Sequence record: NC_048002.1
Length of the DNA: 39,883 nucleotides
Reading direction: 5' to 3' (one strand)
DNA from: Escherichia phage SRT7
Positions 1 through 39,708 of the stretch are shown piece by piece. Each line of letters opens with the position of its first letter. Positions within the stretch are counted from its first letter, which is position 1. The notes below the pieces were generated by a model, which did not search any database, was not told where the DNA came from, and worked only from the letters and a program-made list of their open reading frames with translations. The position numbers and the translations under genes are program-made.

Positions 1-175
1 AGGGACTGAGGCATAACCAAATGTCACCAAAGGTCTCCCAAATGTCACCAAATGTCTCACCGCACCACCTCAGGAGAACCAAAGGTGAACTGAAAGAGGA
101 ACCAAAGGGGAAAGGGACACCAAAGGTGAACTGAAAGAGGCCTATGGGGGAACTTTGGGAGTTGTATCTTTGAGA
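1..175. repeat. Direct terminal repeat, 175 bp, identical to 39709-39883 (phage right-end copy in conventional orientation)
   Basis: First 175 nt match the last 175 nt of the window exactly; contains short CCAAAGG repeats. Confidence 0.95.
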
Positions 176-565: not shown

Positions 566-587
566 TCTCCCTATAGTGTGGGTTAAT
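566..587 (-). promoter_or_regulatory. Phage RNAP promoter (phiOR-like), downstream of terminase gene
   Basis: Minus strand reads ATTAACCCACACTATAGGGAGA; one of 12 near-identical copies. Confidence 0.85.
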
Positions 588-690
588 GCAAACCTATTGA
601 TTCATAAGGAATTTCTAAAAGAGGCACATCCTTGTGTCCTCTCATAGTTATTCACTTAAAGTGCATAAGCACTCAATGTGACCTAAGGTA

Positions 691-3523: not shown

Positions 3524-5359
3524 TTACAGAAGTTCCAGAACCTCCACCTTCTGTACCGGTCCTGCGGTACTCGACTGAAGCATCCTAATTGACGTCTCGG
3601 AAGGAGCATCATACTGCTGGCTCCAGCTACCCATCTGTGTATAGATTCTGATTCCCGGCTCAGGTAGGATTATGCCTACAACACTCTTTAACCCCGTGCC
3701 GGGGATGAAGTGTAGTCGCAGGTGGCGGTTGATAATATTCTCACCAAGGTCAATCTCCCCTTGGGATACTCCAAACGACCCCTCATACAATGTTCGTGGA
3801 GTATATTGGGAGAGTTTCACACGGTTCTCCAGAGAGAGGGTGCGGTTAGTCAGCTCAGTATACACCTGCTCGACTCGTGAAGCTAACACAGCGGCATCCA
3901 CCGAACCCGGATTGTTGACAACACCATGAGTCCTGATAACCCAGACAATCACGATGCCATTCATACGGGCTTCATTAATGTCCTTCTTGTATACGTCGTT
4001 CCACAGTGACGCGTCGAAACCTAACTGAGCACCACTGGTATCGTTAGTTGCACCTTTGTTGGAGCGCCCAGCGTTGTAGAATGCACCAGAGGCACTGGAG
4101 GCCAGCTCATTATCGGCAAGTGCAATCAGACCCTCAATGTTTGGTAGAGCTGACTTCTGAACGTCACCTACAGTAAACCCAGCGTCACCACGGAACACAG
4201 GAGCCTTAATGGAACCCGCATAGACACCGTTGAGGTCAGGTACGCGGAAAGTGGTCGTACCGTTACCTAAGGTATAACAACCACGTTTACCGGGGTCAGA
4301 CAGCCATACGGCGTCAGAGACAACCGGGAGGCGTCCTGCCAGTAACTCAGCTACTAGTGCAGGGAACTGGTTGCGGTTCAGCAGTTGACCGTCCCCATAC
4401 ACTGTACCCGGCTTAGCGTAAGTACGAGAGTTGTGGACCTCAAACTCACCAACCTGACGTACAGCCACTCCGTTAATCCGGTCAACCAGAGTGTTAAACT
4501 GAATTAGCTTATCGGATTCAGTCTTTGCGTTACTTGCAGATGTCGCAGCGTTGCCCTCAGATACAGCGGCCTGTTGAGCAGACGTGTTGGCTGCATCGCG
4601 GTAACCCATAGCGTCGTTGGCGTAACCACCAGCACGGTCAGCCTGTGCCTTAGCGTTCGCTACTTGTGCCTGAGAGTTACCCGCAGAGGTTGCAGACGCA
4701 TTAGCGCTATCCTCAGAGGTCAACGCCCAATGCTTAGCGGAATACTGACTGGAGACCACAGGTGTTCCTTTAGGGTTCTCAGCCCACTTCTGGGCTAACA
4801 GCTCGGAAGCCTTTGAGTTTGTCTCAGAGGTCTTGGCGTTGGTCTCGGACACCTTGGCTTTATTGGCGCTGTCGGCAGCACTACCAGACCAACGGTTCAT
4901 CTGGCCTACGGTAACAACGTCACCAGCGTCCACACCATCTGCCACGTTAACGATACGACGACCACGACCATCAAGGTTGCCATCGTTGTTAACGCCAATG
5001 GTATCAGCGGTCAGGTCTCGCGCTTCTTCAGCAACGTGCAGGGTCTGAATCTGAGATACGTTAAGGTCTGTAGCTCGCAGGATGGAACCATCACTGAAGT
5101 CAACCAGACGTTCACTTGCAGAAGTGTATCGACGAATCTCAATCTGTTGATAGTTATCGGCTGGGCCCCATGCCTTAGTCGTAGATATAAGGTTGCGGGT
5201 AGCGAAGCGATAATCGGTCACAACAACCAGCTCTTTACGGTCTTGACCAATGAGCGTTACCACCACGAACTTACGTGACAGGTACTCAAAGGGAATCGCA
5301 AAGTCAGTCGTGGTGCCATCTAATGGGTACGTATAAACTGTCTTAATGACGTTTGCCAT
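3524..5359 (-). CDS. gp17: Tail fibre protein (T7 gp17-like N-terminus, divergent C-terminal domain)
   Basis: 611 aa; N-terminal ~150 aa closely match T7 gp17; AGGAGG RBS; phi17 promoter upstream. Confidence 0.9.
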   Translation of the reverse strand: MANVIKTVYTYPLDGTTTDFAIPFEYLSRKFVVVTLIGQDRKELVVVTDYRFATRNLISTTKAWGPADNYQQIEIRRYTSASERLVDFSDGSILRATDLNVSQIQTLHVAEEARDLTADTIGVNNDGNLDGRGRRIVNVADGVDAGDVVTVGQMNRWSGSAADSANKAKVSETNAKTSETNSKASELLAQKWAENPKGTPVVSSQYSAKHWALTSEDSANASATSAGNSQAQVANAKAQADRAGGYANDAMGYRDAANTSAQQAAVSEGNAATSASNAKTESDKLIQFNTLVDRINGVAVRQVGEFEVHNSRTYAKPGTVYGDGQLLNRNQFPALVAELLAGRLPVVSDAVWLSDPGKRGCYTLGNGTTTFRVPDLNGVYAGSIKAPVFRGDAGFTVGDVQKSALPNIEGLIALADNELASSASGAFYNAGRSNKGATNDTSGAQLGFDASLWNDVYKKDINEARMNGIVIVWVIRTHGVVNNPGSVDAAVLASRVEQVYTELTNRTLSLENRVKLSQYTPRTLYEGSFGVSQGEIDLGENIINRHLRLHFIPGTGLKSVVGIILPEPGIRIYTQMGSWSQQYDAPSETSIRMLQSSTAGPVQKVEVLELL

Positions 5360-5399: not shown

Positions 5400-5421
5400 T
5401 CTCCCTATAGTGTGGGTTAAT
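5400..5421 (-). promoter_or_regulatory. Phage RNAP promoter (phi17-like)
   Basis: tctccctatagtgtgggttaat on plus strand, i.e. consensus promoter on minus strand. Confidence 0.88.
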
Positions 5422-5423
5422 GA

Positions 5424-8400
5424 TTACCAGCGCTCTGAACGCTTAGGTCGCTCGGTTGTGTAGATGTGCTCTTCGAAAGCACCCAGAAGTAGTCTCTGAG
5501 TAATCGGGTCGTTCGGGAGAACTTCCTTCATATTCTGATAGACACCTGTAGTGAACTCCGTGGAGTCGCGAGGGCCATTGGCACCTCCGAGGTTCCAGAG
5601 GTTCTGACCGAGAGACACCGTAGAGCCAACGTAGTTAGCCACAGGGAACTGTTGACCAATAGCACCCATCAGCTCAGCCGTACCGGAACGACCAGAGGAA
5701 GCCTTGTTAGGGTCTCGCTGTGGTGCATCCTTAGGACTGATAGTGGTACGCATGTACTGACTAGGGGTTAGACCTAATGGGCCAAGTAGCATATCGGCTA
5801 CACCTAATGGCGCACCAGTGATAGAGCTTCGGGAGGCCGCAGCGTAGGTAACCATCTCAGGCGATAAAGCCTTGAAGAGATAGGCCTCACGTTGGTTCTC
5901 AGGAAGACCAGCAGCTTTCATGTGTGACTGCATCACATAGAACGAACCAGCCAACATTCCAGAGATACCAGTAGACAACGCAGCATCCATAGCTCGACCA
6001 TCTCGAGTCGCCTGATAGTAAGTACGTAGGGTCTTACCATTGAGGGACTTAATGACGAACGTCTTAAACTGGAGAGCAGCACCCACAATCGGGCCCAACT
6101 GTTTCACGTTCTGAGCGTTCAGCTTGGAAGGACGAAGCATGGTCTCATCGGCTACCTTGTCAGCCATACGCCACAAGTCCATAGCCCGAGGGTCAAGGCT
6201 CATTGCGTGTTGGTCTGGGAAGCTCCACTTACCGTTAGCGTCCACCTTGGCGTGGTCTTTGAGGAACTGAATGATACCCTTGGACTGCTCAGGCGTGATG
6301 CTGGCAGACTTCAGGAAGTTCTCATTGAGCCACTTGGATGACTTACCAGTCGCAGCGTGTTCAATCAGGTTCCCAATGAGACCCTGACGTGCAGCGCTAA
6401 GCAGGTAGTTCGTGGTGCCTTGTAGCAGCTTACTCATAGGCCACGCAGCGGCAATCTCCTGAGTCCCGAACTTAAGGGAACCCAGAGCGTTTGCACCGAA
6501 TGAACCCATACCAGAGTTGTCACGAAGAGACTGAATGAGGTCTGCCCGTTGAGGGCGAATCATATTGTCCACTTCACGACCCATCAAGCCATACTCCAGC
6601 TTCTGAAGGTCAGTCCCGGAGACAGCCTTAGTGGAACGCATCATGTCACGAACCACAGGGATACCGTGGAACAGAGCACGAACGTTACCCTTGGCAATCA
6701 TACCACCAATCTCCGTCAGGTTCAGAAGACCCATGTAGGCGTTCTTAGCGACAAAGCTCAGGTCTTTAAGAACACCCATAGCCATGTCCACAGCGCCGTT
6801 AGGGTCACGACGAGCACGACCAGTGAGTAACTTCACGGTATCTTCGAGGGCGTTAGCGTCCTGCTTCAGCTTACCGGAAGGGTCACTCTTGGCTCGCTCA
6901 CGGATAGCGGTAATCTTATCCAGCAAGTCCTGAGTAGTCTGACCCGTAGAGTGAATCGCAATGTCACCATTGGTTCGACGGGCATAATTACGCAGCAGCT
7001 TGTTAGCGTCAAAGCTACGAAGGTCATTCAGGGAGAACATCGTACCATCTGGCAGTTGAGACTTGAAGCCCATGCTAAACCCATGACGGCTCTCAAGGAA
7101 GTTGTTCTTCCCGAGGTTCATAGAGTTCGACGCAGAGGCGATATCGTCCAGTGCAAGGTTGGTAGTAAACTCACCATTTACAATACCGAATGCCTTATCA
7201 TTGGCCCACTTCTCAACCATCTCAGGTGTAACTGCGGCTGGGCTATCCAGACCGTTCTTAGCGGCTACCATCTCGTCTACCACAGACTTCGTGTTAGGGT
7301 TGGACGCATAGTCAGCCAAGAAGTGGCGCTGCATGGCACCTTGAGCATCCTCAATGGAGTTCCCAAAGACATTACGGAATGCAGCCACCTTCTCAGGTAC
7401 ATAAGCCACCGGGAAGTATTTGCCGCTAAGTTTCGTCTTGTTCATCACAGGGATTGCTTTAGGGTTACCGAACATCGCAGGGTTAGACATAGCGTCTTCC
7501 TTGCTGGTGGTGAACCGGAAGATTTCATCACGCAGCTTGGATTCACCCTTGGTCAACTTAGAGACGCCAATACCATCTTCCTGTGCTTCCACTGCACGAC
7601 GCACCACGGTCTCACGTGCCAGAGCATCCCCACGGTTAGCGCCCATAGTCCACTCAGGGTCTTTGATTGCATCACGTGTGAACTGCTCAATAGCCGTTAG
7701 GTCGGACGTATCGGTGTAGTGCAGACGCTCAGCCACGTCAGAGGCAACCGTACCGGACTTACCGGAGCCGCCTTTAACGTAACCTGTAGTGGAACGCAGG
7801 AGGTCATAGGCAACACCACGGACTTCATCGTCGGCAGAGCGAGACAGGTGCAGGGAGATATCGGTCATGGAACCCATACGTACACCCATAGAGCCCTTAG
7901 TCACCTCAGGGTCTACCGAAGCAAACTGAGAGGCACTATTAGGGTTCAGAGGGTTACTGGTTGACAGCACTTGACCATCCGGCAGGACTACTTCGCCACT
8001 GTCGAGGGTTGCATATTGAGAGCCATTCGGAGAGGTCTTAAAGTCCAGACCCTCGGTACTCACAGCAGAGTTATCCGGTAGGCCACGCATGGCTGCATCA
8101 CGAGACTCAGCGCGAGCTGTTGCCGCAAGGACGCTCTCAGCTTCACGAGGGTTGGCACGATGTAACACACCAGTCAGGCCAGCACCGAACAGTAAGCCAC
8201 CACCAGCCGCCATCATGTAGTCTGCATGTCCACCACCAACACCCACACGTAAACCTTCAGAGGCTACGTTCAGAGCACCAGCTTGAGTACCTACAGTCAC
8301 CATACGACGACCTAGGGAGATACCCTTGGAAGCCGCACCAGCAATCGGGATGTAGCTCACAGGGTCTACAGCAGCACCAGCGAGAGCACCCACGAGGTGG

Positions 8401-9386
8401 GCACCCATACCAGCATCGGCTACAGAGTCCTGACGGTCCTGACGTTCCTTAGCCAGCTTAATCATCTCATCGAGAGTCTCAGCGTTGGACCCAAGGACAG
8501 ACTGAGCGTACTCAGCACGAAGACCACTCTCACGAATCTTTTGGATATCATCAGGAGTGAACGTGTAGCTGTTCCACTTGGATGGTGTAATAGTTGCAGA
8601 CCAAACGTCATACCCGTTGTCGCCAAGGGCTGCATCAGCCATCGTAGCTAGAGCGGAGTTCTGTACCTCAACCTTAGCCACGTCACCAGTCTTATAGAAT
8701 AACCCTTTGTCAGCTCCCTGAGGCTTATAGTTCTCCTCTGGCTGGTCGTTCTGTACTGCCCACGTATTGGCAGCAGTACGTTCGTTCAATTGGTCATACT
8801 TAAGGTTAGACGTGTCCATGTTGACGCTTGCAGTCTCTGGACCGGGAGCCCCACGAGTTACCTTAGAGGCTGGGGCTTCGACCTCATAGATTCCCTTTGC
8901 GAAGTCACCGAACTTCTCAATGGCTTCTGAGCGCAGGGACTTAGCGGAACCTACCAGTTTACGGATGTACAGGCGACCTTCATCACCAATGCTACCGTAG
9001 TCCTGCTTATCGTAGGCTTCAATCTGAGGCATACCAGTCGGGCCTTCCCCAACGTTATACATCAGGGCGGCTCGCAGCTCATCACCATTAGACTTCTTAA
9101 CGAAGCCAGCAAGCAACTTAGCAGCAGCCGGGATTGCTTTCTCAGGGTTGTAACGGTCATCAGCCGGGTTGTCCTCTTTGAAGACATTGAGTCCCATAGC
9201 CCGACCAGTACCAGCAGTCATCTGCATGATACCCTTAGGTCCTGTAGGTGACTTAGCGTTAGCGTTAAAGCTGGACTCATTGAACGTTAAGTGTCGAAGG
9301 AGGTCATAAGAGACCCCGTTGGCATCGGCAGCTTGACGAATCAGTCCATCGTATTGGTTAGGGATAGTTTTGTCATATTTAGCCAT
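5424..9386 (-). CDS. gp16: Internal virion protein D (T7 gp16-like) with N-terminal lytic transglycosylase domain
   Basis: 1320 aa; N-terminus MAKYDK...GLIRQAADANGVSYDLLR matches T7 gp16. Confidence 0.92.
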   Translation of the reverse strand: MAKYDKTIPNQYDGLIRQAADANGVSYDLLRHLTFNESSFNANAKSPTGPKGIMQMTAGTGRAMGLNVFKEDNPADDRYNPEKAIPAAAKLLAGFVKKSNGDELRAALMYNVGEGPTGMPQIEAYDKQDYGSIGDEGRLYIRKLVGSAKSLRSEAIEKFGDFAKGIYEVEAPASKVTRGAPGPETASVNMDTSNLKYDQLNERTAANTWAVQNDQPEENYKPQGADKGLFYKTGDVAKVEVQNSALATMADAALGDNGYDVWSATITPSKWNSYTFTPDDIQKIRESGLRAEYAQSVLGSNAETLDEMIKLAKERQDRQDSVADAGMGAHLVGALAGAAVDPVSYIPIAGAASKGISLGRRMVTVGTQAGALNVASEGLRVGVGGGHADYMMAAGGGLLFGAGLTGVLHRANPREAESVLAATARAESRDAAMRGLPDNSAVSTEGLDFKTSPNGSQYATLDSGEVVLPDGQVLSTSNPLNPNSASQFASVDPEVTKGSMGVRMGSMTDISLHLSRSADDEVRGVAYDLLRSTTGYVKGGSGKSGTVASDVAERLHYTDTSDLTAIEQFTRDAIKDPEWTMGANRGDALARETVVRRAVEAQEDGIGVSKLTKGESKLRDEIFRFTTSKEDAMSNPAMFGNPKAIPVMNKTKLSGKYFPVAYVPEKVAAFRNVFGNSIEDAQGAMQRHFLADYASNPNTKSVVDEMVAAKNGLDSPAAVTPEMVEKWANDKAFGIVNGEFTTNLALDDIASASNSMNLGKNNFLESRHGFSMGFKSQLPDGTMFSLNDLRSFDANKLLRNYARRTNGDIAIHSTGQTTQDLLDKITAIRERAKSDPSGKLKQDANALEDTVKLLTGRARRDPNGAVDMAMGVLKDLSFVAKNAYMGLLNLTEIGGMIAKGNVRALFHGIPVVRDMMRSTKAVSGTDLQKLEYGLMGREVDNMIRPQRADLIQSLRDNSGMGSFGANALGSLKFGTQEIAAAWPMSKLLQGTTNYLLSAARQGLIGNLIEHAATGKSSKWLNENFLKSASITPEQSKGIIQFLKDHAKVDANGKWSFPDQHAMSLDPRAMDLWRMADKVADETMLRPSKLNAQNVKQLGPIVGAALQFKTFVIKSLNGKTLRTYYQATRDGRAMDAALSTGISGMLAGSFYVMQSHMKAAGLPENQREAYLFKALSPEMVTYAAASRSSITGAPLGVADMLLGPLGLTPSQYMRTTISPKDAPQRDPNKASSGRSGTAELMGAIGQQFPVANYVGSTVSLGQNLWNLGGANGPRDSTEFTTGVYQNMKEVLPNDPITQRLLLGAFEEHIYTTERPKRSERW

Positions 9387-12807: not shown

Positions 12808-12829
12808 TCTCCCTATAGTGTGGGTTAAT
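12808..12829 (-). promoter_or_regulatory. Phage RNAP promoter (phi13-like)
   Basis: Consensus 22-mer on minus strand. Confidence 0.88.
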
Positions 12830-12853
12830 GCACACCACAAGGAGAGCCTATTG

Positions 12854-15268
12854 TTAGATACCTGAAGTGCGGGACGTGTAGGCACCTTCCCAACCACAGC
12901 CGATAACGTTCAGTGGAGTTGTGTGGTCACTGAGAATACGCACAGTGTTGTACAAGGCGTTGCCAGCTACAGGGAATCGGAACTGACCAGTACCTAACGA
13001 CAACCATCCGACCCTTACGTTGTCCGAGCCTAATCGTCCCCCACCCATCGTATAGGTCCACAGTCGGCTAAGGTTCTCAACCTCAACGTCAAACGCTCCA
13101 GTGTTCTCATAGTTCAACCACGCTCGGCGTAACTGTAAGCGCCCGGTGTCTTCGGTAGAGATTGTCCCATCGTCTGCGGTCTTCTTAATGAGGAACTTAC
13201 TGAAGACATAGCGGAAGTCGAAGTTGAACCCAATGTACATCTTGACACCCTCAAGATTCCCATCGTAGACCAGCTTTGGCGCATTGTTCCAACCCACCTC
13301 TGGCTCCTCGAATCTCCACACTTTACCGTCAGGAGCTACAGAACTAATTGTTCCCTTTTCGAACTTCATGTCGTAGATGGTCATGAGGTCGATGGTGGTC
13401 TCGTTATAGTCCTCGTTGTAGGTTCCCGTTGGAATCGTGTATGGGACCTTAGCGTCCAGATAGATTCGATATGGCTCATCAGCGAAGTCCACGGTGTCCT
13501 TAGTGAACGGGATGTATCCCATGAAGACATTCTCCCCGTTCTCCATAATGACGAACATGTTGCTGTTGATGGAGCTTGCAGCAAGAATACGCACATTACT
13601 GCCGAACTCCCAATGTGACCAAGAGGCCTGACGGAGTTCTTCGTTGAGGTACAGGAACTTGTAGATGTAGATGCGAGACTCTGCACCAGACGTTAAGACA
13701 CTCGCGAAGTTCTCCGTAGAGGACCCATGAATGTTGAACACACCGTTCGGGATGTAGCTCGGTACGTGGGCTGTCATGTCCTCAGCGTTCTTGACGGCAC
13801 TCACATCCTGCACAGCGTAATACCGTGAGATTGACGTGAAGGTGGCTCGTGGTGACGCAAAGTAGACGTTACGCCCGATACCGTAAGGACGCGCCCGGTC
13901 ATACACATCGAACTGAGTCGTCAGGTTCAATTCAATGGTCTTGCTAGTCAGGACCCCAGAGGCACTCATGGTGAACTGAGCTTCATCAGACCACAGGAGC
14001 AGCTCCTCAGTGAACGGTACGGCATACTTCAGGATGGACACTCGGTTGTGCGATACTGCCACATCAATCGGGTCATCATCACTAAGGTTAGCCACACTGG
14101 ATGGGAAGAAGTTAAAGTAACGAGCTGTGCGGGAAAGAATAACGTTCTCACCAGAAAGGAACCCTAAACGATTTCGATAGAAGAACACATCGTTAATCGT
14201 AGAGCCGACGAAGGATGGGAAAGGGTTGGTATCATCATCCCCAGACTTACGGTCATTCCAATCGAGAGGCTTAAGGTCAAAGTTACCATCAGCCGCACGA
14301 ATCAGTGCATGTGGCATTGTCTCTTTGACGAACGTTAGGTCTTGGTTCCACCCAATGACTTCCTTCCAGACCTTACGGTCAGCGTCATACTGAACGTAGT
14401 ACGCATCGGCTGTCTTTGAGGTATCGCCAACGATGTGCACTAAGTAGCCATCAGGGGCAACCGGAGGTAACTTGGCGAACGTCTGGGCGTAGTGACTCAC
14501 CGGGTAGATGAGCTGGTCTGCGTAACCATCCTTCGTCGAGAAGTCCGTGATGTCAACTCCAGCAGGTGACTCAATGTAAATGTAACCTTGACCAACTGTC
14601 ACCGTCCACGTGCCGTTATTCAACTTAGCGAGGTTGGTGCGTAGCTGTGTGGCAAGGCTTTCAGCAATCACCTGAGCATCGGTCTGCTTTGAGTGTGCTG
14701 GCTGGGAACCATCAGGAAGGTCCAGTTTGGCTTGCTGTCCACCGTTAAGGTTAACGTAAAGGCTACGACCGTACTGACCACCACGTACCACAATAAGTAC
14801 GCTCTCCTTCTCCTTGAAGGTTCCACCGTTGGACTTATCCGTAGTGTTTCGACCTACAGTCTTCTTGTTGTTTGCAATGAAGGTGTAGTCGGCAATGGTA
14901 ATCATGCGCAGGTCATCGCGAGGGTTAGGTGACTGGATGTAGGACATGTCGCCACGGACCAGATACTCCTTCCCAGACAGGTCGAATACCTTAACGTCGC
15001 TCCCGGAGAAACACGCATAATACTGTTCGTACTCGTCTCGGTTAATCAGGTGGACATACGGATATTCCCCGATGTGTCCCTTAGGCCCAAGGTTCTTAGT
15101 GAACACGATAGGAGAGCGCTTCTGGAGACCTTCAGACTCTGAAGACCATCCGTTAATCTGTTCGCTACCCTGCTCGGCAAATCGTAGAATCTCCGGCTGT
15201 TGACTAATACCGCTCTTGAGGTTCTTAACGGTCTGACTTACTAATGATGTGGAACTAAAACGAGCCAT
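12854..15268 (-). CDS. gp12: Tail tubular protein B (T7 gp12-like)
   Basis: 804 aa; N-terminus ...KNLKSGISQQPEILRF matches T7 gp12. Confidence 0.92.
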   Translation of the reverse strand: MARFSSTSLVSQTVKNLKSGISQQPEILRFAEQGSEQINGWSSESEGLQKRSPIVFTKNLGPKGHIGEYPYVHLINRDEYEQYYACFSGSDVKVFDLSGKEYLVRGDMSYIQSPNPRDDLRMITIADYTFIANNKKTVGRNTTDKSNGGTFKEKESVLIVVRGGQYGRSLYVNLNGGQQAKLDLPDGSQPAHSKQTDAQVIAESLATQLRTNLAKLNNGTWTVTVGQGYIYIESPAGVDITDFSTKDGYADQLIYPVSHYAQTFAKLPPVAPDGYLVHIVGDTSKTADAYYVQYDADRKVWKEVIGWNQDLTFVKETMPHALIRAADGNFDLKPLDWNDRKSGDDDTNPFPSFVGSTINDVFFYRNRLGFLSGENVILSRTARYFNFFPSSVANLSDDDPIDVAVSHNRVSILKYAVPFTEELLLWSDEAQFTMSASGVLTSKTIELNLTTQFDVYDRARPYGIGRNVYFASPRATFTSISRYYAVQDVSAVKNAEDMTAHVPSYIPNGVFNIHGSSTENFASVLTSGAESRIYIYKFLYLNEELRQASWSHWEFGSNVRILAASSINSNMFVIMENGENVFMGYIPFTKDTVDFADEPYRIYLDAKVPYTIPTGTYNEDYNETTIDLMTIYDMKFEKGTISSVAPDGKVWRFEEPEVGWNNAPKLVYDGNLEGVKMYIGFNFDFRYVFSKFLIKKTADDGTISTEDTGRLQLRRAWLNYENTGAFDVEVENLSRLWTYTMGGGRLGSDNVRVGWLSLGTGQFRFPVAGNALYNTVRILSDHTTPLNVIGCGWEGAYTSRTSGI

Positions 15269-15940: not shown

Positions 15941-17136
15941 TTAGTTAGTCGTTTCGCCAGCCTCCAGAGCGGCCTTAGCAGCCCTGTTTGCAGCACGAGT
16001 GCGAGCGGCTTTCTGTTGTGGCGTAAGCTCCTCAACGACAACCTCCGGTGCATCAGCCATTAGGGCACTGAATTGGACCGGAGGAGGACTTGGAGTTACA
16101 CCAGTTTGAAAACCAGTGCACCAGCAGCTTCTGGGCGCAGACCGCCGTGACCCATCGCGTACTTAGCGATAATCTGGTCAGCCTGATACTCGGCACGACG
16201 AGCACGTTCCAGAGCCAAATCACGCAGCTTCACAGTACCGACCGCAGAACGGTGATGGAACAGGCCAGCCACGTTATCCTCAGCAACCTTAACGGTAGAG
16301 CTGGAGGTAGCCGGGAATGCGTGTTTCTGGTTGGTCGGAGCATCGTCCTTATCGTCACCTGCACCACCTGCGGTGAAGTGCGGAACCTCGACAACCTCGA
16401 AGCCCATTACGTTACGGATAGAACCAGTTTCCGGGTCAATCAGCGCAGCGTAGTTAGCAGCGTTAGGCATCAGGGCCGCCAGAATCGCAGAGTAGTACTC
16501 CGGCTTGGTGTAGAACACACGGTCACCAGCAGGTACGTAGTTGGAGGTCAGCTTAGCGCGAGCCTGAGTCAGGCCAGCAATCAGGGCTTTACCCAGAGCC
16601 ACGGAGTCAGCTTCCAGAGCGTCTTTCAGGCCACCTTCCAGAGTCAGTACGGACGGCTTACCCAGACCCGCGATGTTCTCATCAGAGGCCGCTGGCAGGT
16701 TACACAGAGCCGCAGCTTCAGCCAGAACGGAGCCATCAGCAGCCATCGCCAGAGATTCACCGAGCTGTGCGGTGTACTCAGCGGAAACGTCATAGTGGTT
16801 CATTGCGTCTTCGATGTCGTAAATCAGAACGTCAGCAGTCAGGAGACCATCAATGTTGATGACCTTCTCGGTGTGCTTGATGTCTTTACGTTTATCGTCG
16901 AGGTTCTCACCCGGTTGCAGATAGGCTGCACGAGTACGACCCAGCACAGGGAACTGCGCGGATTTACCGGAAGCAATGGAGCGAACCATATGTCGGTTAG
17001 CGGTCACGGATGCGCGAGTAAACGCGGTCAGTACTTCACCTGCGAATACCTTCAGGAACAGAGCCAGTTTGTCTGCTGCGGATTGACCTTTACCTTGGTT
17101 AGTACCAATCTGCTGTCCACCAGTTGCGTTTGCCAT
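15941..17136 (-). CDS. gp10B: Minor capsid protein 10B, made by -1 frameshift near the end of 10A
   Basis: Slippery G GTT TTC at 16109-16115; -1 frame open 55 codons to TAA at 15941; predicted 398 aa as in T7. Confidence 0.7.
16096..17136 (-). CDS. gp10A: Major capsid protein 10A
   Basis: 346 aa; MANATGGQQIGTNQGKG... near-identical in many blocks to T7 gp10A; strong RBS. Confidence 0.97.
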   Translation of the reverse strand: MANATGGQQIGTNQGKGQSAADKLALFLKVFAGEVLTAFTRASVTANRHMVRSIASGKSAQFPVLGRTRAAYLQPGENLDDKRKDIKHTEKVINIDGLLTADVLIYDIEDAMNHYDVSAEYTAQLGESLAMAADGSVLAEAAALCNLPAASDENIAGLGKPSVLTLEGGLKDALEADSVALGKALIAGLTQARAKLTSNYVPAGDRVFYTKPEYYSAILAALMPNAANYAALIDPETGSIRNVMGFEVVEVPHFTAGGAGDDKDDAPTNQKHAFPATSSSTVKVAEDNVAGLFHHRSAVGTVKLRDLALERARRAEYQADQIIAKYAMGHGGLRPEAAGALVFKLV

Positions 17137-17241: not shown

Positions 17242-17263
17242 TCTCCCTATAGTGTGGGTTAAT
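17242..17263 (-). promoter_or_regulatory. Phage RNAP promoter (phi10-like)
   Basis: Consensus 22-mer; ~110-nt leader ending AGAAGGAGATTCAACATG. Confidence 0.9.
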
Positions 17264-17268
17264 GCAAA

Positions 17269-18271: not shown

Positions 18272-18293
18272 TCTCCCTATAGTGTGGGTTAAT
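18272..18293 (-). promoter_or_regulatory. Phage RNAP promoter (phi9-like)
   Basis: Consensus 22-mer on minus strand. Confidence 0.88.
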
Positions 18294-18301
18294 GCAATTT
18301 G

Positions 18302-20803: not shown

Positions 20804-20825
20804 TCTCCCTATAGTGTGGGTTAAT
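20804..20825 (-). promoter_or_regulatory. Phage RNAP promoter (phi6.5-like)
   Basis: Consensus 22-mer on minus strand. Confidence 0.88.
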
Positions 20826-20846
20826 ACACAAAGACCCTATAATCAG

Positions 20847-20963
20847 TTACTTAGGCTCGGTCAGCCATTTGTACGCTAACCAGCTTGCAGACCACAGGCA
20901 CTTAGCTAAGCCACCCATGAAAATCAGAATGCTGACGTACTTGAGGATGATGGTGGGTTCCAT
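20847..20963 (-). CDS. Small hydrophobic peptide (38 aa) at gene 6.3 position
   Basis: Hand translation MEPTIILKYVSILIFMGGLAKCLWSASWLAYKWLTEPK; AAGGAG RBS; overlaps 3' end of gene 6 in another frame. Confidence 0.4.
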   Translation of the reverse strand: MEPTIILKYVSILIFMGGLAKCLWSASWLAYKWLTEPK

Positions 20964-21853
20964 AAGTAAATCTCCTTGTCAATAAAGTTATACTCTTCGA
21001 ATCGCAAGATGCGAGCCATACGCGCCTGAGCGATTACACCATCTTCATCCATACCAGCCTTAGCTGCGATGCTTACAATGCACTCCCACAAACTCCGACC
21101 ATCTGGGTCCGACTTGACCCACTTAGTCACCTCCTGTCCTTTGTTCTTGCCGGACTTAAGGATAGACGTTACGGGTTCCGTGAAGAACGGTTCATTCAGG
21201 AACTCTTCAGCCGTATCGCCCCATCCCGGAATCCCACCGTAACCATCAGTAATATCGCCCTTGATGGTCTGATAGAGGTGCCAGAAGTCGGCAGACTTAA
21301 GGTCCTGCACGAGGATGTTACCAGTCGTACACCACAGGAAGTCCACGTTAGGTATGGTCTTAAAGTCCTTGTCACAGGAGACCAATACAGCCTTATCGAA
21401 GCCAAACTCGGAGTGACCTGAACCAAGTATACCCATAACGTCATCACCTTCTAGTTTGTCCTCTCGGATGCATATATAGTCAGGGTTATTGAATAACGCT
21501 TCGAGGAACTCAAAGTAACCTACAGGTTTCTTCGTGGCCTTTCGGTTGGACTTGTAGTTCTCGTCAACGAGGACCTTACGCCAGTTGATTGAGTCAGTGA
21601 ACGCAAGGACAATCTTGGCAGTTGCCCAGCCTTTCTTACGGGTACGATAGGTCTCGATAGAGCTGAACAGGAACTCACGAGCCTTGGCGTGGTCACAACA
21701 ACGCTGCCAAATCTCCTCTTCCCACGAAGCGTCGAACTCAGCCGCAGACATAGCTTGGAACACCAGCCAGTCACCATCCATGACCAGTAGTCCCTTCTCT
21801 CGTGGCTGAGTCTTTCGGTAGTCGTAGAAGTCCTTAAGTGTCATTAAGCTCAT
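20924..21853 (-). CDS. gp6: 5'-3' exonuclease (T7 gp6-like)
   Basis: 309 aa; GLLVMDGDWLVFQAMSAAEFDASWEEEIW and C-terminal blocks match T7 gp6. Confidence 0.93.
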   Translation of the reverse strand: MSLMTLKDFYDYRKTQPREKGLLVMDGDWLVFQAMSAAEFDASWEEEIWQRCCDHAKAREFLFSSIETYRTRKKGWATAKIVLAFTDSINWRKVLVDENYKSNRKATKKPVGYFEFLEALFNNPDYICIREDKLEGDDVMGILGSGHSEFGFDKAVLVSCDKDFKTIPNVDFLWCTTGNILVQDLKSADFWHLYQTIKGDITDGYGGIPGWGDTAEEFLNEPFFTEPVTSILKSGKNKGQEVTKWVKSDPDGRSLWECIVSIAAKAGMDEDGVIAQARMARILRFEEYNFIDKEIYLWNPPSSSSTSAF

Positions 21854-26164: not shown

Positions 26165-26186
26165 GTTCCCTATAGTGTGGGTTAAT
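26165..26186 (-). promoter_or_regulatory. Phage RNAP promoter (phi4.3-like; GGGAAC initiating variant)
   Basis: Minus ATTAACCCACACTATAGGGAAC. Confidence 0.8.
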
Positions 26187-26263
26187 GTCGTGAAGGACAG
26201 ACACAAGGTCTATCCCAAGGGCAGTTGCATTGTGTGGTCAGCTTCCAGTCAGGTTCTAGTTGA

Positions 26264-28092
<1,829 letters not shown>

Positions 28093-29239: not shown

Positions 29240-29944
29240 TTAGAAGTCGTCGTTGTCGTCAGCTTGACCATCGGACTCATCACCCTGTTGCCAAGACTGC
29301 TCATCACGTTGACCCTGCGACTGCTGAGCTTCGTAGCCACCTTCCTCGGTGTCGTCGCCCCAATCATCACCACCACCAGCGCCACCCGCAGCCAGCTCGA
29401 CCAGCATTACGCTAGACAGTTGCAGCTTAACGGAAGCGCCAACGGTAGGGTTCCAAGTGTAAGGCATCAGGCTGTACTTCAGCTTCAGCTTAGAGCCACC
29501 GCCAATGAAAGCTGGCAGGTCTTCGATGCGTTTACCTTTGGAGTCCACGATGGTCACGTTAATGGCCTTGGTCTCTTTGGTCTTCTTGTCTGTGTAGGAC
29601 GCATAGCAAGAGAACTTAAAGGTAGTCGTACCGTCACCGTTGTCGATGAACGGTAGGTCACCTTCATACGGCAGCAGCGGTTTCTTGCCACGCTGTACCT
29701 GCGGTGGGTTCTCTTCGTACTCTGCCTTGCGCTGAGCGAAGTGCTCTTCGTGCGCCTTAACGATTTCGTCAATCATGGCTTGACAACGCGGGTTCTTATT
29801 GTCGATGGTCAGGTTGACCTTATAGACACCACGAGGATTACCGAAGCCACGCTCTTCGTTGCCATAGTCAGGCTTGGTCAGGTACGCATACGGTTCACAA
29901 ATACCCAGAGCGGTAGTCAGGATTGCTTTACGATTGAATGACAT
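29240..29944 (-). CDS. gp2.5: Single-stranded DNA-binding protein (T7 gp2.5-like)
   Basis: 234 aa; EPYAYL.KPDYGNEERGFGNPRGVYKV and acidic C-terminus ending DF as in T7 gp2.5. Confidence 0.95.
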   Translation of the reverse strand: MSFNRKAILTTALGICEPYAYLTKPDYGNEERGFGNPRGVYKVNLTIDNKNPRCQAMIDEIVKAHEEHFAQRKAEYEENPPQVQRGKKPLLPYEGDLPFIDNGDGTTTFKFSCYASYTDKKTKETKAINVTIVDSKGKRIEDLPAFIGGGSKLKLKYSLMPYTWNPTVGASVKLQLSSVMLVELAAGGAGGGDDWGDDTEEGGYEAQQSQGQRDEQSWQQGDESDGQADDNDDF

Positions 29945-30018: not shown

Positions 30019-30040
30019 TGTCCCTATAGTGTGGGTTATT
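30019..30040 (-). promoter_or_regulatory. Phage RNAP promoter (phi2.5-like; variant -17..-13 and GGGACA)
   Basis: Minus TAATAACCCACACTATAGGGACA; overlaps 3' end of gene 2. Confidence 0.75.
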
Positions 30041-30221
30041 AGACGGCTGGACGAACTCGGAGCACCTCAAAGCCTACCGGAGTATACTTAAAGGTTGCCA
30101 AATCGTGTGCCTCTTCGAGAGACCCTGCGAATACAGGCACCTCCAGCTCGCCATCAACGTAACTGAGCGTCACGAAGTACTTCTTATCGGTTGGGACGAG
30201 GCGTCCCTTCTCAATGGTCAT
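30039..30221 (-). CDS. gp2: Host RNA polymerase inhibitor (T7 gp2-like)
   Basis: Start at ATG 30221 (MTIEKGR..., 60 aa) with AAGGAGAAAGG RBS; C-terminus VGFEVLRVRP resembles T7 gp2. Confidence 0.75.
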   Translation of the reverse strand: MTIEKGRLVPTDKKYFVTLSYVDGELEVPVFAGSLEEAHDLATFKYTPVGFEVLRVRPAV

Positions 30222-31157: not shown

Positions 31158-31179
31158 TCTCCCTATAGTGTGGGTTAAT
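31158..31179 (-). promoter_or_regulatory. Phage RNAP promoter (phi1.5-like)
   Basis: Consensus 22-mer on minus strand. Confidence 0.88.
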
Positions 31180-31182
31180 AGG

Positions 31183-32882: not shown

Positions 32883-32904
32883 TCTCCCTATAGTGTGGGT
32901 TAAT
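32883..32904 (-). promoter_or_regulatory. Phage RNAP promoter (phi1.1B-like)
   Basis: Consensus 22-mer; transcript 5' end can form GGGAGA-loop-UCUCCC hairpin. Confidence 0.88.
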
Positions 32905-32908
32905 ATAC

Positions 32909-33281: not shown

Positions 33282-33303
33282 GTTCCCTATAGTGTGGGTT
33301 AAT
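33282..33303 (-). promoter_or_regulatory. Phage RNAP promoter (phi1.1A-like; GGGAAC variant)
   Basis: Minus ATTAACCCACACTATAGGGAAC. Confidence 0.8.
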
Positions 33304-33348
33304 GATAAGACCCTGAAGATTCAAGGCCTTAGGTATTAACCGACGCTG

Positions 33349-35997
33349 TTAGGCGAACGCAAAGTCAGACTTTAAGATTTCCTGAAGATTCAGAGACCCT
33401 TTAGCTGGAATCGCTGGCATCTTCTCAAGCTGACTTTCGTGAAGCTGGTCGTAGAACTGGTCGTAGAACTCTTGGATTACGTCATGCTCCTCATAGGTCT
33501 CCACAAGGGTCTCACGTACTGCGTTAAACAGGTTGCGAGCGTCTGCGGCTACCGTACCGAAGCTATCGTGAATCAGAGCGAACGACTTAATGCCATACTT
33601 ATTGTGACCGTGCACTACCGTCTGACGCAGGTGGCTACCATCCATGCTGTGCACGAAGTTAGGCGCAATCCCGGACTCCTGTTTGTGTGCGTCAATCCCG
33701 CTATCCTTTGTTGTGTTGATGGTCAGAGCCATGCGAATCTTACCAAGGAAAATCAGGTCGAGACGCTTCTGGACTGGCTTCTTGTACTCCTGCCACACAG
33801 GGAACCCATCAGGAGTAACCCAATGTACAGCACAGCGGTTGCGCAGGATTGTCCCGTCCTTATCCTTCACCTCAGCGGCTAACAGCTTAGCAGCACTCTG
33901 GAGCCACTTCATGGCATCAACCGCAGCCACCACAGTGACACTTACAGCTTCCCAGATGAGCTTCGCCATGTAACCTGCGGCTTGGTTCGGCTGGGTAAAC
34001 ATGAGGCCCTTCCCGTTGTCAATAGCTGGACGGATGGTGTCCTCCAGTACTTGGTCACGGAAGCCATACTCTTTGGAACCATACGCCAGCGTCATGACAG
34101 AACGTTTAGTGACCCCACGGTTGACCCCAAAGGCCAGCCACTGACCAGCCAGCTCGCGAGTACCCAGCTTAGGCTTCTCGGTAATCTCACCAGTGGTCTT
34201 ATTGGTAATCACTTCGATTTCGTTGTCGGTCCCGCCGATAGCATCAGCCTGAAGACGGATGTTAACCTTGTCGGAGACGATACGATAGATATCCTGCACG
34301 GTCTCGCTCGGTAGCAGGTTAACTGCACGACCACCAACCTCATCACGCAGCATAGCAGAGAAGTGCTGAATCCCTGAGCATGAGCCATCGAAGGCCAGCG
34401 GCAGAGAGGACACGTAGGACTTACCGTGACGGAACGCTCCAGCGTACTCAAAGCAGAACGCGAGGAAACAGAACGGTGAATCTTGCTCGGCCCACCAAAG
34501 GTTCTCTAAAGGAGCCTCAGCGCAAGCCATAATATCTGCGTGGTGACTCTCAATGAAGTCGATGCGCTCCGGGAATGGGACCTTATCAACACCTGCGGTA
34601 TTCGCACCGTGAATCTTCAGCCAGTACATTCCGTCCTCACCGATAGGCTTGCCAGTGGCGAACGTCAGGAGGCCCTTTGTCATATCGTTGCCCTGTGGGT
34701 TAAACATCGGGCAAGCATACACGCGACCGCGCCAGTCTAGGTTGTACGGGAACCAGATTGCCTTAAACTGTGCAAACTTATTGGCCTGACCGAGAGCGAA
34801 CTCGAGGGACAGGCGCTTAGACACGCGAGCCTTATCCTGACGATACACGGCTGCGGCTGCTTTCTTCCACGACTTGAGAGACGCTTCATTCGTGTCGATG
34901 TCCTCAGGTTTCTCCGGGAGTTCTTTACGCTCCAGCGCTGGGATATCCTCCACCGGACAGTTCTTCCAGTTGACCACCTGATTGACGACCGCCAGAACCT
35001 TCGTGTTAATCTTCCACGCTGTATTCTGAGCGATGTTTACCGCTTCATATACCTCAGGCATAGACACATCGTTGTAGCGCATGAGAGCCTTACGAGAGCC
35101 TACACGAATCAACTGAATCGGCTTACGACCAGCCGCCCAATAGCCGCCACCTTCGATGGACGTCCAAGGTTTCGGAGGGACTACACAAGGTTGATACATT
35201 GGTGCGATTGCAGCCAGTGCCCCAGCGCGTTTACTGATAGCTTCTACCCATTCGTCAGCCAGAAAGACAAACTGACCGTCTGACTTAACGTTCCCGGCGT
35301 TCATACGCTCGACCTCAACGAGACCTGTAGACTCAATAAGCAATTCAAGCATCTTGATACCTGTGTGCTCCAGCTCCTCGGTGGTCCAGTGCTCCCACGT
35401 GGATTTAAGCTCTTTGCGCTCAATCATCTGTTTCTCTACGACCTGCATGTAAGCCTTTTTGTAGAGCAAGCCGTTGCGCTTGTTGAGCCCGTCCTCTACG
35501 TACTTCTTAAAGAACTTGGCTTCCTCATCACGGATACGACCGAAGCGTAACTCATCTTCGATTGCACGACCTATGGCGAACGCTACGTTCTGCATTGATG
35601 CCAGTTCCTGCTTGGCTACCTGTGCCAGTGTCTGCTTGACCACGATTGCCGCACAGTTGTCGGCTTTGATTGCCGCTGTGGTCTTTGTAGCTACGTGCTT
35701 ACGTCCTTTCTTCACGCGCATCTCTTCGTGCCACTCAGTGAAACGAGCAGACAACCGAGGGATTAACGTCTGGACTACACCTTTAGCCGCTGCGTTATCT
35801 GCAAACTCGCCAGCCTCAATCTGACGCTGTAACTGCTTATGGAAACGCTTCTCACCTTCCGTGTATGCCTCGTGCTCTAACTCAAGTTGAACAGCCGCCA
35901 GATGTTCGCCGTAATGGTCTGCCAATACGTTGAACGGTTCGATATCGTGTTTGATATCAGAAAAGTCATTCACTGCCGGATTAATTACGTTGCTCAT
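33349..35997 (-). CDS. gp1: Single-subunit DNA-dependent RNA polymerase (T7 gp1-like)
   Basis: 882 aa; extensive identity to T7 RNAP including catalytic HDSFGT and C-terminal FAFA. Confidence 0.97.
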   Translation of the reverse strand: MSNVINPAVNDFSDIKHDIEPFNVLADHYGEHLAAVQLELEHEAYTEGEKRFHKQLQRQIEAGEFADNAAAKGVVQTLIPRLSARFTEWHEEMRVKKGRKHVATKTTAAIKADNCAAIVVKQTLAQVAKQELASMQNVAFAIGRAIEDELRFGRIRDEEAKFFKKYVEDGLNKRNGLLYKKAYMQVVEKQMIERKELKSTWEHWTTEELEHTGIKMLELLIESTGLVEVERMNAGNVKSDGQFVFLADEWVEAISKRAGALAAIAPMYQPCVVPPKPWTSIEGGGYWAAGRKPIQLIRVGSRKALMRYNDVSMPEVYEAVNIAQNTAWKINTKVLAVVNQVVNWKNCPVEDIPALERKELPEKPEDIDTNEASLKSWKKAAAAVYRQDKARVSKRLSLEFALGQANKFAQFKAIWFPYNLDWRGRVYACPMFNPQGNDMTKGLLTFATGKPIGEDGMYWLKIHGANTAGVDKVPFPERIDFIESHHADIMACAEAPLENLWWAEQDSPFCFLAFCFEYAGAFRHGKSYVSSLPLAFDGSCSGIQHFSAMLRDEVGGRAVNLLPSETVQDIYRIVSDKVNIRLQADAIGGTDNEIEVITNKTTGEITEKPKLGTRELAGQWLAFGVNRGVTKRSVMTLAYGSKEYGFRDQVLEDTIRPAIDNGKGLMFTQPNQAAGYMAKLIWEAVSVTVVAAVDAMKWLQSAAKLLAAEVKDKDGTILRNRCAVHWVTPDGFPVWQEYKKPVQKRLDLIFLGKIRMALTINTTKDSGIDAHKQESGIAPNFVHSMDGSHLRQTVVHGHNKYGIKSFALIHDSFGTVAADARNLFNAVRETLVETYEEHDVIQEFYDQFYDQLHESQLEKMPAIPAKGSLNLQEILKSDFAFA

Positions 35998-39384: not shown

Positions 39385-39406
39385 GCTCCTTATAGTGTGG
39401 GTTAAT
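39385..39406 (-). promoter_or_regulatory. Phage RNAP promoter (phiOL-like; AAGGAGC initiating variant)
   Basis: Minus ATTAACCCACACTATAAGGAGC, ~300 bp inside the left terminal repeat. Confidence 0.7.
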
Positions 39407-39708
39407 AGGCCGTGATAATAGCTATTGACTCTTTGGTCTCTTTAAGTTACCTTATAAGCGTACCACAGATAGACCGCTCTTTAACAATCTGACCAGTAGC
39501 ACCAGCATCACAGCAAAGATGCGACCAATAAGCCCTGAGAGCCTAGCTAATCACCTCTCTGATAAACTGATAGCAAACCATAAGCCATGAGACTGACGGT
39601 CTCTGATAAGCGTCACAGCGCTACTGAGAGTAAACCAAAGGATGGGCACCGACCAAAGGTGATGACCTGAGGTGACATTGAGTGATGACCTTATGATGTC
39701 CAACAGAT

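What the first reader, a model, noticed from the sequence alone, without database searches (positions are those of the whole stretch)
33720..33765. RNAP specificity-loop substitutions co-vary with the promoter sequence
Aligning the RNAP to T7 RNAP by counting back from the catalytic HDSFGT and C-terminal FAFA gives Asp at the position of T7 N748 (as in T3) and Ala at the position of T7 Q758 (sequence KIRMALTINT versus T7 QFRLQPTINT). All 12 promoters have C at -10 and -11 (T3-like) and A at -8, where both T7 and T3 have T. N748 and Q758 are the residues known to read -10/-11 and -8, so this polymerase probably has a promoter specificity distinct from both T7 and T3.
Basis: partly seen in the sequence, partly recalled or inferred. 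Interest (0 to 1): 0.55.

Follow-up and report, generated by a model that had tools for sequence, protein, structure and literature searches.

The report
Known N4-type phage RNAP–promoter pair
This T7-like coliphage (genus Foetvirus) has an RNA polymerase with Asp and Ala at the two DNA-reading positions and 12 matching promoters (…AACCCACACTATAG…), a polymerase–promoter pairing already described in nature and already exploited for orthogonal T7 expression systems, so it is real but ordinary.

Summary
The window is a T7-like phage genome on the minus strand. Its closest relative is Escherichia phage P1723, genus Foetvirus. The RNA polymerase (33349-35997, minus; 882 aa) aligns to T7 RNAP without gaps across the specificity loop. 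T7 N748 corresponds to D747, R756 to R755 and Q758 to A757. Twelve copies of YATTAACCCACACTATAGGGAGA lie in intergenic gaps, all on the coding strand, where chance predicts 0.11. All twelve have C at -11 and -10 and A at -8.

The interpretation, a specificity distinct from T7 and T3, is supported but not new. D748/R756/A758 paired with ACCCA at -12..-8 is a published natural class. The Vibrio phage N4 loop grafted into T7 RNAP (Temme 2012) and the minimal T7 N748D+Q758A mutant (Zhu 2025) both use ACCCA promoters orthogonally.

My comparisons add three points:
- A relative with 85% identity and an RMAI loop also uses ACCCA, as predicted.
- Its D/R/Q neighbours use ACCCT.
- With the loop masked, the RNAP tree places this lineage far from Vibrio N4 (63% identity), so the same solution arose at least twice.

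Verdict: a new member of a known kind, of low interest. This enzyme itself has not been tested.

The parts
33349..35997 (-). Gene 1: T7-like single-subunit RNA polymerase, 882 aa
   Evidence: ORF list and translation. Pfam PF00940 at 362 bits and PF14700 at 57.8 bits. Full-length match to T7 RNAP 1cez at 1436 bits. 71% identity to T7 and T3, 66% to K11.
33691..33786 (-). Specificity loop (beta-hairpin), window residues 738-769 = T7 739-770
   Evidence: Gap-free alignment to T7. Loop limits 739-770 taken from PMC8874028.
33757..33759 (-). D747 (GAC) = T7 N748 / T3 D749. Reads -11/-10.
   Evidence: N748D switches T7 RNAP to T3-type CC promoters (PMC3458549).
33733..33735 (-). R755 = T7 R756. Contacts G-9 on the template strand. 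Conserved.
   Evidence: R756:G-9 hydrogen bond from PMC8874028.
33724..33732 (-). M756-A757-L758 = T7 L757-Q758-P759. A757 replaces the Gln that hydrogen-bonds A-8 of the template strand.
   Evidence: Codons ATG GCT CTG. Q758:A-8 contact. Positions 757 and 758 are both coupled to promoter position -8.
33763..33765 (-). R745 = T7 R746. Contacts G-7 on the template strand. Conserved, matching C at -7 in all promoters.
35692..35718 (-). AT-rich recognition loop (window 94-102 = T7 93-101). Sequence KKGRK as in T3, whereas T7 has KRGKR.
   Evidence: Alignments. It goes with the T3-like ATTA at -16..-13 of the promoters. That it reads -17..-13 comes from established knowledge, not tested here.
39385..39407 (-). 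Promoter 1 (-17..+6), phiOL-like, near the left genome end. +1 is A instead of G.
   Evidence: The position matches P1723 site 319.
33282..33304 (-). Promoter 2, 62 nt downstream of the RNAP stop codon (phi1.05-like)
   Evidence: Synteny with the P1723 annotation.
32883..32905 (-). Promoter 3 (phi1.1-like)
31158..31180 (-). Promoter 4 (upstream of the gene 1.6 homologue)
30019..30041 (-). Promoter 5 (phi2.5-like, upstream of SSB ORF 29240-29944). A at -15.
26165..26187 (-). Promoter 6 (after primase/helicase 26264-28033; phi4.3-like)
20804..20826 (-). Promoter 7 (after exonuclease 20924-21853; phi6.5-like)
18272..18294 (-). Promoter 8 (phi9-like, between the gene 8 and gene 9 homologues)
17242..17264 (-). 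Promoter 9 (phi10-like, upstream of the major capsid gene 16096-17136)
12808..12830 (-). Promoter 10 (phi13-like, after the gene 12 homologue 12854-15268)
5400..5422 (-). Promoter 11 (phi17-like, between gene 16 at 5424-9386 and the tail fibre gene at 3524-5359)
566..588 (-). Promoter 12 (phiOR-like, after the terminase gene 691-2442)

Best explanation
The window is the genome of a T7-like coliphage of the genus Foetvirus. Its RNA polymerase and its 12 middle/late promoters form a matched pair of the known D748/R756/A758 : ACCCA class (T7 numbering), often called N4-type.

Mechanism, contact by contact:
- The specificity-loop hairpin sits in the major groove at -12 to -7.
- R745 and R755 keep the conserved contacts to template G-7 and G-9. 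The promoters accordingly have C at -7 and -9.
- D747, as in T3, selects C-11/C-10 where T7 has G-11/A-10.
- A757 removes the Gln that in T7 and T3 hydrogen-bonds the template adenine at -8. The promoters carry A at -8, which puts T on the template strand.
- The likely positive contact is hydrophobic, between A757 (helped by M756 and L758) and the thymine methyl.
- A T3-like AT-rich loop (KKGRK) goes with the T3-like ATTA at -16..-13.

Net result: the enzyme should use its own promoters and discriminate against T7 promoters strongly, and against T3 promoters mainly through -8.

Shown here: the residues, the promoters, and the covariation in relatives. Shown by others on T7 scaffolds: these two substitutions are sufficient for ACCCA-specific, orthogonal transcription. 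Inferred: the physical Ala-thymine contact, and the behaviour of this particular enzyme.
For: 1. Residue equivalences come from gap-free alignments.

2. All 12 promoters carry ACCCA, against a chance expectation of 0.11. All are on the coding strand and lie in the canonical T7-like intergenic positions.

3. Covariation in sequences I fetched:
- D/R/A with ACCCA: the window, P1723 (13 sites) and Vibrio N4 (14 sites).
- D/R/Q with ACCCT: T3, phiKp_31, Pectobacterium MA6 and L117.
- N/R/Q with CGACT: T7-like phages and Yepe2.
- K/N/K with GGACA or GGGCA: K11-like phages.
- E/R/R with AtCCC: L118.

4. A prediction was tested. P0040 is 85% identical and has the loop KVRMAITINT. I expected it to use ACCCA. 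Its contig L116 carries CATTAACCCACACTATTGGGAGA: 4 exact sites plus 3 variants.

5. A natural switch exists. Vibrio N4 and VP4 RNAPs differ at 17 residues, 10 of them in the loop, including A758Q and R746V. All 14 orthologous promoters differ exactly at -8 and -7.

6. Experiments in the literature:
- T7 N748D+Q758A is active on ACCCA and more than 200-fold orthogonal (PMC11880802).
- The T7(N4-loop) chimera is orthogonal to T7, T3 and K1F promoters (PMC3458549).
- The hydrogen bonds R756:G-9, Q758:A-8 and R746:G-7 are described in PMC8874028.
Against: - No transcription data exist for this enzyme or for P1723.
- The orthogonality data come from T7 scaffolds, and Zhu's four-pair set did not include the T3 promoter (ACCCT).
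- Discrimination between -8 A and -8 T rests on Temme's Figure 2C, whose numbers I could not read. The text says only 'highly orthogonal'.
- An Ala side chain cannot make base-specific hydrogen bonds, so the positive read-out of -8 is conjecture.
- Residues 753, 754, 756 and 758 also differ from T3 and T7 and may contribute.
Confidence: 0.85

Rival explanations
1. Relaxed rather than new specificity. Q-to-A simply deletes the -8 contact, so the enzyme is indifferent at -8 and would also use T3-type promoters. The A at -8 would then be fixed by history, not by read-out.
For: Ala has no hydrogen-bonding side chain. In Zhu's network some promoter nodes are shared by neighbouring residue classes.
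Against: - A-8 is invariant at 12/12 sites in the window, 13/13 in P1723, 14/14 in Vibrio N4 and at 6 of the 7 sites in L116, the seventh being out of register (ATTAACCCCACACTATT).
- The same pairing arose in two unrelated lineages.
- N4 and VP4 switched all 14 orthologous promoters together with residue 758.
- The T7(N4) chimera is reported as orthogonal to the T3 promoter.
Confidence: 0.1
2. A757 is a passenger. The change in -8 preference is made by the neighbouring substitutions M756 and L758 (and K753/I754), which reshape the hairpin.
For: - M at 757 accompanies A758 in all three natural D/R/A loops seen: RMAL, RMAI, and RMAL in Vibrio N4.
- Position 757 is itself coupled to -8 in the DCA.
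- P759L/S arose in laboratory evolution of T7 RNAP toward the T3 promoter.
Against: T7 RNAP with only N748D+Q758A, keeping L757 and P759, is already highly active and specific on ACCCA.
Confidence: 0.05
3. The repeated 23-mers are not phage-RNAP promoters but some other repeat.
For: None beyond the lack of direct transcript mapping.
Against: - The -7..+6 core CACTATAGGGAGA is identical to the T7 class III consensus.
- All sites are on the coding strand, in intergenic gaps, at the positions of phiOL, phi1.05 to phi17 and phiOR in relatives with annotated promoters.
Confidence: 0.01

Closest known systems
Vibrio phage N4 / ICP3 RNAP and promoters (Chatterjeevirus). This is the 'N4' specificity loop of Temme et al. 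2012 and the D/R/A:ACCCA class of Zhu et al. 2025.
   Same: - D748, R756, M757, A758 and L759.
- Promoter identical from -16 to +1 (ATTAACCCACACTATAG).
- The same class label applies, and its function has been shown in T7 scaffolds.
   Different: - Only 63% RNAP identity. The two sit in different clades, each with 100% bootstrap support.
- The rest of the loop is T3/T7-like (QKRLDLIFLGKI versus QKRIDCVILGTH).
- Nucleotide identity is not raised in the loop (61%), so this is an independent origin rather than a transferred loop.
- The host is E. coli rather than V. cholerae.
T3 RNAP with the T3 promoter (D/R/Q : ACCCT)
   Same: - D at 748 with C-11/C-10.
- AT-rich loop KKGRK with ATTA at -16..-13.
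- 71% identity.
   Different: - Q758 with T-8 in T3, versus A757 with A-8 here.
- T3 has A at -2 in its consensus; here it is T, as in T7.
T7 RNAP with the T7 promoter (N/R/Q : CGACT)
   Same: - The fold, the catalytic residues, and R746 and R756.
- Identical -7..+6 core CACTATAGGGAGA.
   Different: N748D and Q758A in the enzyme. The promoters differ at -15, -12, -11, -10 and -8.
K11 / KP32-type RNAPs (K/N/K : GGGCA or GGACA)
   Same: A at -8 in the promoter.
   Different: -8 is read by Lys, not Ala. -12..-10 is GGG or GGA, read by K748 and N756.
Escherichia phage P1723 (Foetvirus), MT465573
   Same: - Identical specificity loop and the same promoter consensus.
- 95% nucleotide identity across the RNAP gene and 97% across 25 kb.
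   Different: P1723 has one extra promoter copy, within a split tail-fibre region (34831), and a CACCATAG variant at the phi4.3 site. No promoters are annotated in the record.

Membership tests
T7-like single-subunit RNA polymerase (Pfam RNA_pol PF00940 + RPOL_N PF14700) | Both Pfam domains score above the curated cut-offs | tested here: met
   PF00940 at 362 bits (cut-off 22) and PF14700 at 57.8 bits (cut-off 30.1).
T7-like single-subunit RNA polymerase (Pfam RNA_pol PF00940 + RPOL_N PF14700) | Catalytic and functional residues conserved (T7 D537, K631, Y639, H784, D812) and the C-terminal FAFA | tested here: met
   The invariant columns in the four-way alignment include D537, K631, Y639, H783 and D811 in window numbering. 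The C-terminus is ...SDFAFA.
T7-like single-subunit RNA polymerase (Pfam RNA_pol PF00940 + RPOL_N PF14700) | Full-length collinear similarity to a solved T7 RNAP | tested here: met
   Window residues 3-882 align to 1cez_A residues 2-883 at 1436 bits.
D/R/A : ACCCA specificity class (Zhu et al. 2025; 'N4' subfamily of Temme et al. 2012) | Asp, Arg and Ala at the positions of T7 748, 756 and 758 | tested here: met
   D747, R755 and A757.
D/R/A : ACCCA specificity class (Zhu et al. 2025; 'N4' subfamily of Temme et al. 2012) | Cognate promoters in the same genome have ACCCA at -12..-8 | tested here: met
   12 of 12 sites.
D/R/A : ACCCA specificity class (Zhu et al. 2025; 'N4' subfamily of Temme et al. 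2012) | The enzyme transcribes ACCCA promoters selectively | not testable with these tools
   Shown only for T7 scaffolds carrying the same residues.
D/R/A : ACCCA specificity class (Zhu et al. 2025; 'N4' subfamily of Temme et al. 2012) | Common descent with the Vibrio N4 lineage. This is not required by the class definition. | tested here: not met
   With the loop masked, the NJ trees place the window with Pektosvirus-like RNAPs and place N4 with VP4 and T7-Ah, each at 100% bootstrap.
T3-type (D/R/Q : ACCCT) | Gln at 758 with T at -8 | tested here: not met
   Ala with A-8.
T7-type (N/R/Q : CGACT) | Asn at 748 with G-11/A-10, and Gln at 758 with T-8 | tested here: not met
   Asp with C-11/C-10, and Ala with A-8. 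No site in the window lies within 4 mismatches of the T7 consensus.
Genus Foetvirus (Studiervirinae) | High genome-wide nucleotide identity to a classified member | tested here: met
   97.4% identity over 97% of a 24.9-kb query to P1723, which is classified as Foetvirus.

The most novel reading that the evidence does not exclude
The Foetvirus-like lineage (window, P1723 and the 85%-identical P0040 phage) reached the same protein-DNA code as Vibrio phage N4 independently. That code is D748, M757, A758 and a hydrophobic residue at 759, read against ACCCA. Each lineage appears to have started from a D/R/Q : ACCCT ancestor. If so, Met-Ala-(Leu/Ile) is a preferred, possibly epistatically constrained, natural solution for reading a T:A pair at -8. 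In that case this full-length native coliphage enzyme could be a better-behaved ACCCA-specific orthogonal polymerase in E. coli than the T7(N4-loop) chimeras.
Probability: 0.6. Interest if true: 0.35.

Novelty: new member of a known kind. Interest (0 to 1): 0.22.

Why it matters
It matters little for basic biology. The residues that set promoter specificity in T7-like polymerases, and this particular Asp/Ala-ACCCA pairing, are already mapped, mined from genomes and engineered.

There are two modest points of value. First, the window gives an evolutionarily independent replicate of the 758A: -8A rule, with close D/R/Q: ACCCT relatives for comparison. That strengthens the published covariation code and points to residues 757 and 759 as co-adapted. 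Second, it is a native E. coli-phage enzyme with ACCCA specificity. It could be tried as an orthogonal expression polymerase in settings where loop-grafted T7 variants performed poorly; the split-polymerase N4 variant, for example, could not be rescued (PMC4299498).

Tried and rejected
- IMG/VR scan with a back-translated RMALTINT pattern. All 9 hits were chance matches at the starts of unrelated ORFs (MAF/LTINT...). It found no RNAP and missed Vibrio N4 because its loop ends ...TINI.

- Protein database search with only the C-terminal 199 aa. It returned mostly gene fragments. Only one extra identical loop turned up (P0001). The full-length query was the useful one.

- A simple anchored-regex promoter finder. 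It failed for loci whose promoters end CACTATT or have few copies (Kvp1-like and Yepe2-like groups). I replaced it with a de novo k-mer consensus and with annotated promoters.

- Loop transfer from a Vibrio N4-like phage. I rejected this because nucleotide identity in the loop (61%) is no higher than in the flanks (57-66%), and the loop backbone is T3/T7-like.

- Supplementary tables of Temme 2012 and Zhu 2025 are not held. I therefore could not read the measured cross-reactivity of D/R/A on ACCCT.

- I did not run a structure prediction. A model without DNA would not inform base read-out, and the loop aligns to 1cez without gaps.
Full report
WHAT THE WINDOW IS

All long ORFs lie on the minus strand in the order typical of T7-like phages. 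The closest GenBank phage is Escherichia phage P1723, at 94.9% nucleotide identity over the RNAP gene and 97.4% over 24.9 kb. P1723 is classified in Studiervirinae, genus Foetvirus.

The ORF at 33349-35997 (minus) encodes an 882-aa protein. It carries both Pfam domains of single-subunit RNA polymerases. It matches T7 RNAP (PDB 1cez) end to end. It is 71% identical to T7 and T3 RNAP and 66% to K11 RNAP. The catalytic residues and the C-terminal FAFA are present.

CHECKING THE OBSERVATION

Both phmmer and MAFFT align the C-terminal third to T7 without gaps, with window residue n equal to T7 residue n+1. The equivalences are:
- T7 R746 = R745
- N748 = D747
- R756 = R755
- L757 = M756
- Q758 = A757
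- P759 = L758

I confirmed the codons on the raw sequence: GAC at 33757-33759 and GCT at 33727-33729.

The promoter claim is also correct. ATTAACCCACACTATAG with up to 3 mismatches occurs 12 times, always on the minus strand, against 0.11 expected by chance. The consensus is YATTAACCCACACTATAGGGAGA. Every copy has ACCCA at -12..-8.

The sites fall in intergenic gaps at the canonical positions. These are the left end, just after gene 1, before the homologues of genes 1.1, 1.6, 2.5, 4.3, 6.5, 9, 10, 13 and 17, and after gene 19. No site in the window is within 4 mismatches of the T7 consensus. The twelve sites are the only matches to the T3 consensus, each at 3 or 5 mismatches including T-to-A at -8. 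Annotated T7, T3, Yepe2 and K11 promoters read in the same register give CGACT, ACCCT, CGACT and GGGCA/GGACA at -12..-8.

WHAT IS ALREADY KNOWN

The pairing is not new.

Zhu et al. 2025 (PMC11880802) mined T7-like RNAP-promoter pairs from phage genomes.
- Positions 748, 756, 757 and 758 are the ones coupled to -11..-8.
- They grouped natural enzymes by residues 748/756/758 and list D/R/A : ACCCA as one natural class.
- T7 RNAP with only N748D+Q758A is highly active on ACCCA and more than 200-fold orthogonal within a four-pair set.

Temme et al. 2012 (PMC3458549) had already grafted the 'N4' loop into T7 RNAP. The substitutions were 747I, 748D, 749C, 750V, 751I, 754T, 755H, 757M, 758A and 759L. 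They obtained a 40-fold-inducible polymerase for ACCCA promoters that is orthogonal to T7, T3 and K1F.

'N4' here means the T7-like Vibrio phage N4, not coliphage N4. Its promoter is listed as AATTAACCCACACTATA (PMC11617373). A further natural enzyme using TAATTAACCCACACTATAGGGACA has been characterised by in vitro transcription (PMC13029058). The T7 contacts R756:G-9, Q758:A-8 and R746:G-7 on the template strand are summarised in PMC8874028.

INDEPENDENT TESTS DONE HERE

I collected RNAP loci from IMG/VR, GenBank phages and public assemblies. For each I read both the loop and the promoters.

The classes behave as the published code predicts:

| Residues 748/756/758 | -12..-8 | Phages or loci |
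|---|---|---|
| D/R/A | ACCCA | window, P1723, Vibrio N4 |
| D/R/Q | ACCCT | T3, phiKp_31, Pectobacterium MA6, L117 |
| N/R/Q | CGACT | T7-like, Yepe2 |
| N/N/Q and N/H/Q | ACTAT | IMG/VR loci |
| K/N/K | GGACA or GGGCA | K11-like |
| K/N/F | GGTAG | IMG/VR loci |
| E/R/R | AtCCC | L118 |

A forward prediction held. The protein search found P0040, an RNAP 85% identical to the window's, with the loop KVRMAITINT (D/R/A). Its 39.6-kb contig carries CATTAACCCACACTATTGGGAGA as four exact sites plus three near-variants (two with a single substitution, one with an extra C that shifts the register). That differs from the promoter of the D/R/Q phage MA6 (ATTAACCCTCACTATTGGGAG) only at -8.

ORIGIN OF THE D/R/A STATE

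With the loop masked, NJ trees group window + P1723 + P0040 at 100% bootstrap. Their neighbours are D/R/Q, E/R/R and N/H/Q enzymes (P0041, P0042, MA1A and L004). Vibrio N4 groups with VP4 and Aeromonas T7-Ah, also at 100%. This agrees with the published placement of Foetvirus as sister to Pektosvirus (PMC7693777).

The window and Vibrio N4 enzymes are only 63% identical. The loop shows no excess nucleotide identity (61%), and its backbone is T3/T7-like. The D/R/A: ACCCA solution, including Met at 757, therefore arose at least twice, each time among D/R/Q: ACCCT relatives.

The Vibrio pair shows this clearly. N4 and VP4 genomes are about 94-95% identical. Their RNAPs differ at 17 residues, 10 of them in the loop (R746V, M757L, A758Q and others). 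All 14 orthologous promoters differ exactly at -8/-7, AC versus TG.

MECHANISM AND ITS LIMITS

The shown parts are the residue identities, the promoter set and the covariation, including independent replicates. The literature adds that N748D+Q758A suffices in T7.

The inferred part is how Ala reads -8. With A on the non-template strand, the template base is T. The likely contact is hydrophobic, between Ala (plus Met 756 and Leu 758) and the thymine methyl, combined with loss of the Gln-adenine hydrogen bonds that favour T-8 promoters.

How strongly this enzyme discriminates against T3 promoters is not known. The only direct evidence is Temme's statement of orthogonality for the chimera.

The T3-like AT-rich loop (KKGRK) matches the T3-like ATTA at -16..-13. 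L758 matches the P759L substitution that arose when T7 RNAP was evolved toward the T3 promoter.

VERDICT

This is a further natural member of a published and engineered specificity class, so its interest is low.

The most novel reading still open is convergent evolution of the Met-Ala-Leu/Ile motif in an enterobacterial lineage. There may also be practical value in a native coliphage ACCCA-specific polymerase.

Noticed in passing
L049 (Vibrio phage N4, NC_013651) versus L112 (Vibrio phage VP4, NC_007149): The genomes are about 94-95% identical. The RNAPs differ at 17 aa, 10 of them in the specificity loop (R746V, T754S, H755M, M757L, A758Q, T760K, I761L, I763M and others). All 14 orthologous promoters differ exactly at -8/-7 (AACCC-AC-ACTATAG versus AACCC-TG-ACTATAG). 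VP4 keeps one N4-type site at about 36602. This is a natural wholesale switch of the enzyme together with all its promoters between close relatives.
   Followed up: partly
L118 10001-12661 and its promoters (Logan SRR22752034 contig; protein P0042): An RNAP 77% identical to the window's has E/R/R at positions 748/756/758 (loop QKRVELTFLGSIRLRATVNT). It has 5 copies of AATTTAtCCCCACTATCGGGAGACA, that is C at -8 paired with Arg at 758. I did not check whether this class has been described.
   Followed up: no
window 21475-21487 (minus), inside the exonuclease ORF 20924-21853: A single AACCCTGACTATA, which is the VP4/Aeromonas-type promoter core with TG at -8/-7. It lies within coding sequence and is probably a chance match.
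   Followed up: no
window 39385-39407 (minus): The leftmost promoter copy (phiOL-like) has A instead of G at +1 (…CACTATAAGGAG). The same variant is present in P1723 at position 319.
   Followed up: partly
L048 (P1723) 34814-34836 and 13723-13745: P1723 has a 13th promoter copy, between two ORFs both annotated as tail fibre gp17. That site is absent from the window. It also has a CACCATAG variant at the phi4.3 site, where the window has the consensus.
   Followed up: no
L116, L113 and L114 (P0040 phage, Pectobacterium MA6, Yepe2): These relatives have T rather than A at -1 (CACTATTGGGAGA). The window and P1723 have the T7-like CACTATAGGGAGA. The -1 base therefore changed within the Foetvirus-like clade independently of -8.
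   Followed up: no
RefSeq records seen: Many T7-like RNAPs are labelled 'N4-like RNA polymerase' in RefSeq. The 'N4' loop of the synthetic-biology literature comes from the T7-like Vibrio phage N4, not from coliphage N4. This is a naming trap for anyone interpreting these annotations.
   Followed up: partly
P0038 and P0039: RNAPs about 100% identical to the window's occur on an ENA metagenome contig (10.6 kb) and on a 39.5-kb Logan assembly contig (cluster of 9 sequences). This phage has therefore been sequenced repeatedly in public runs.
   Followed up: no
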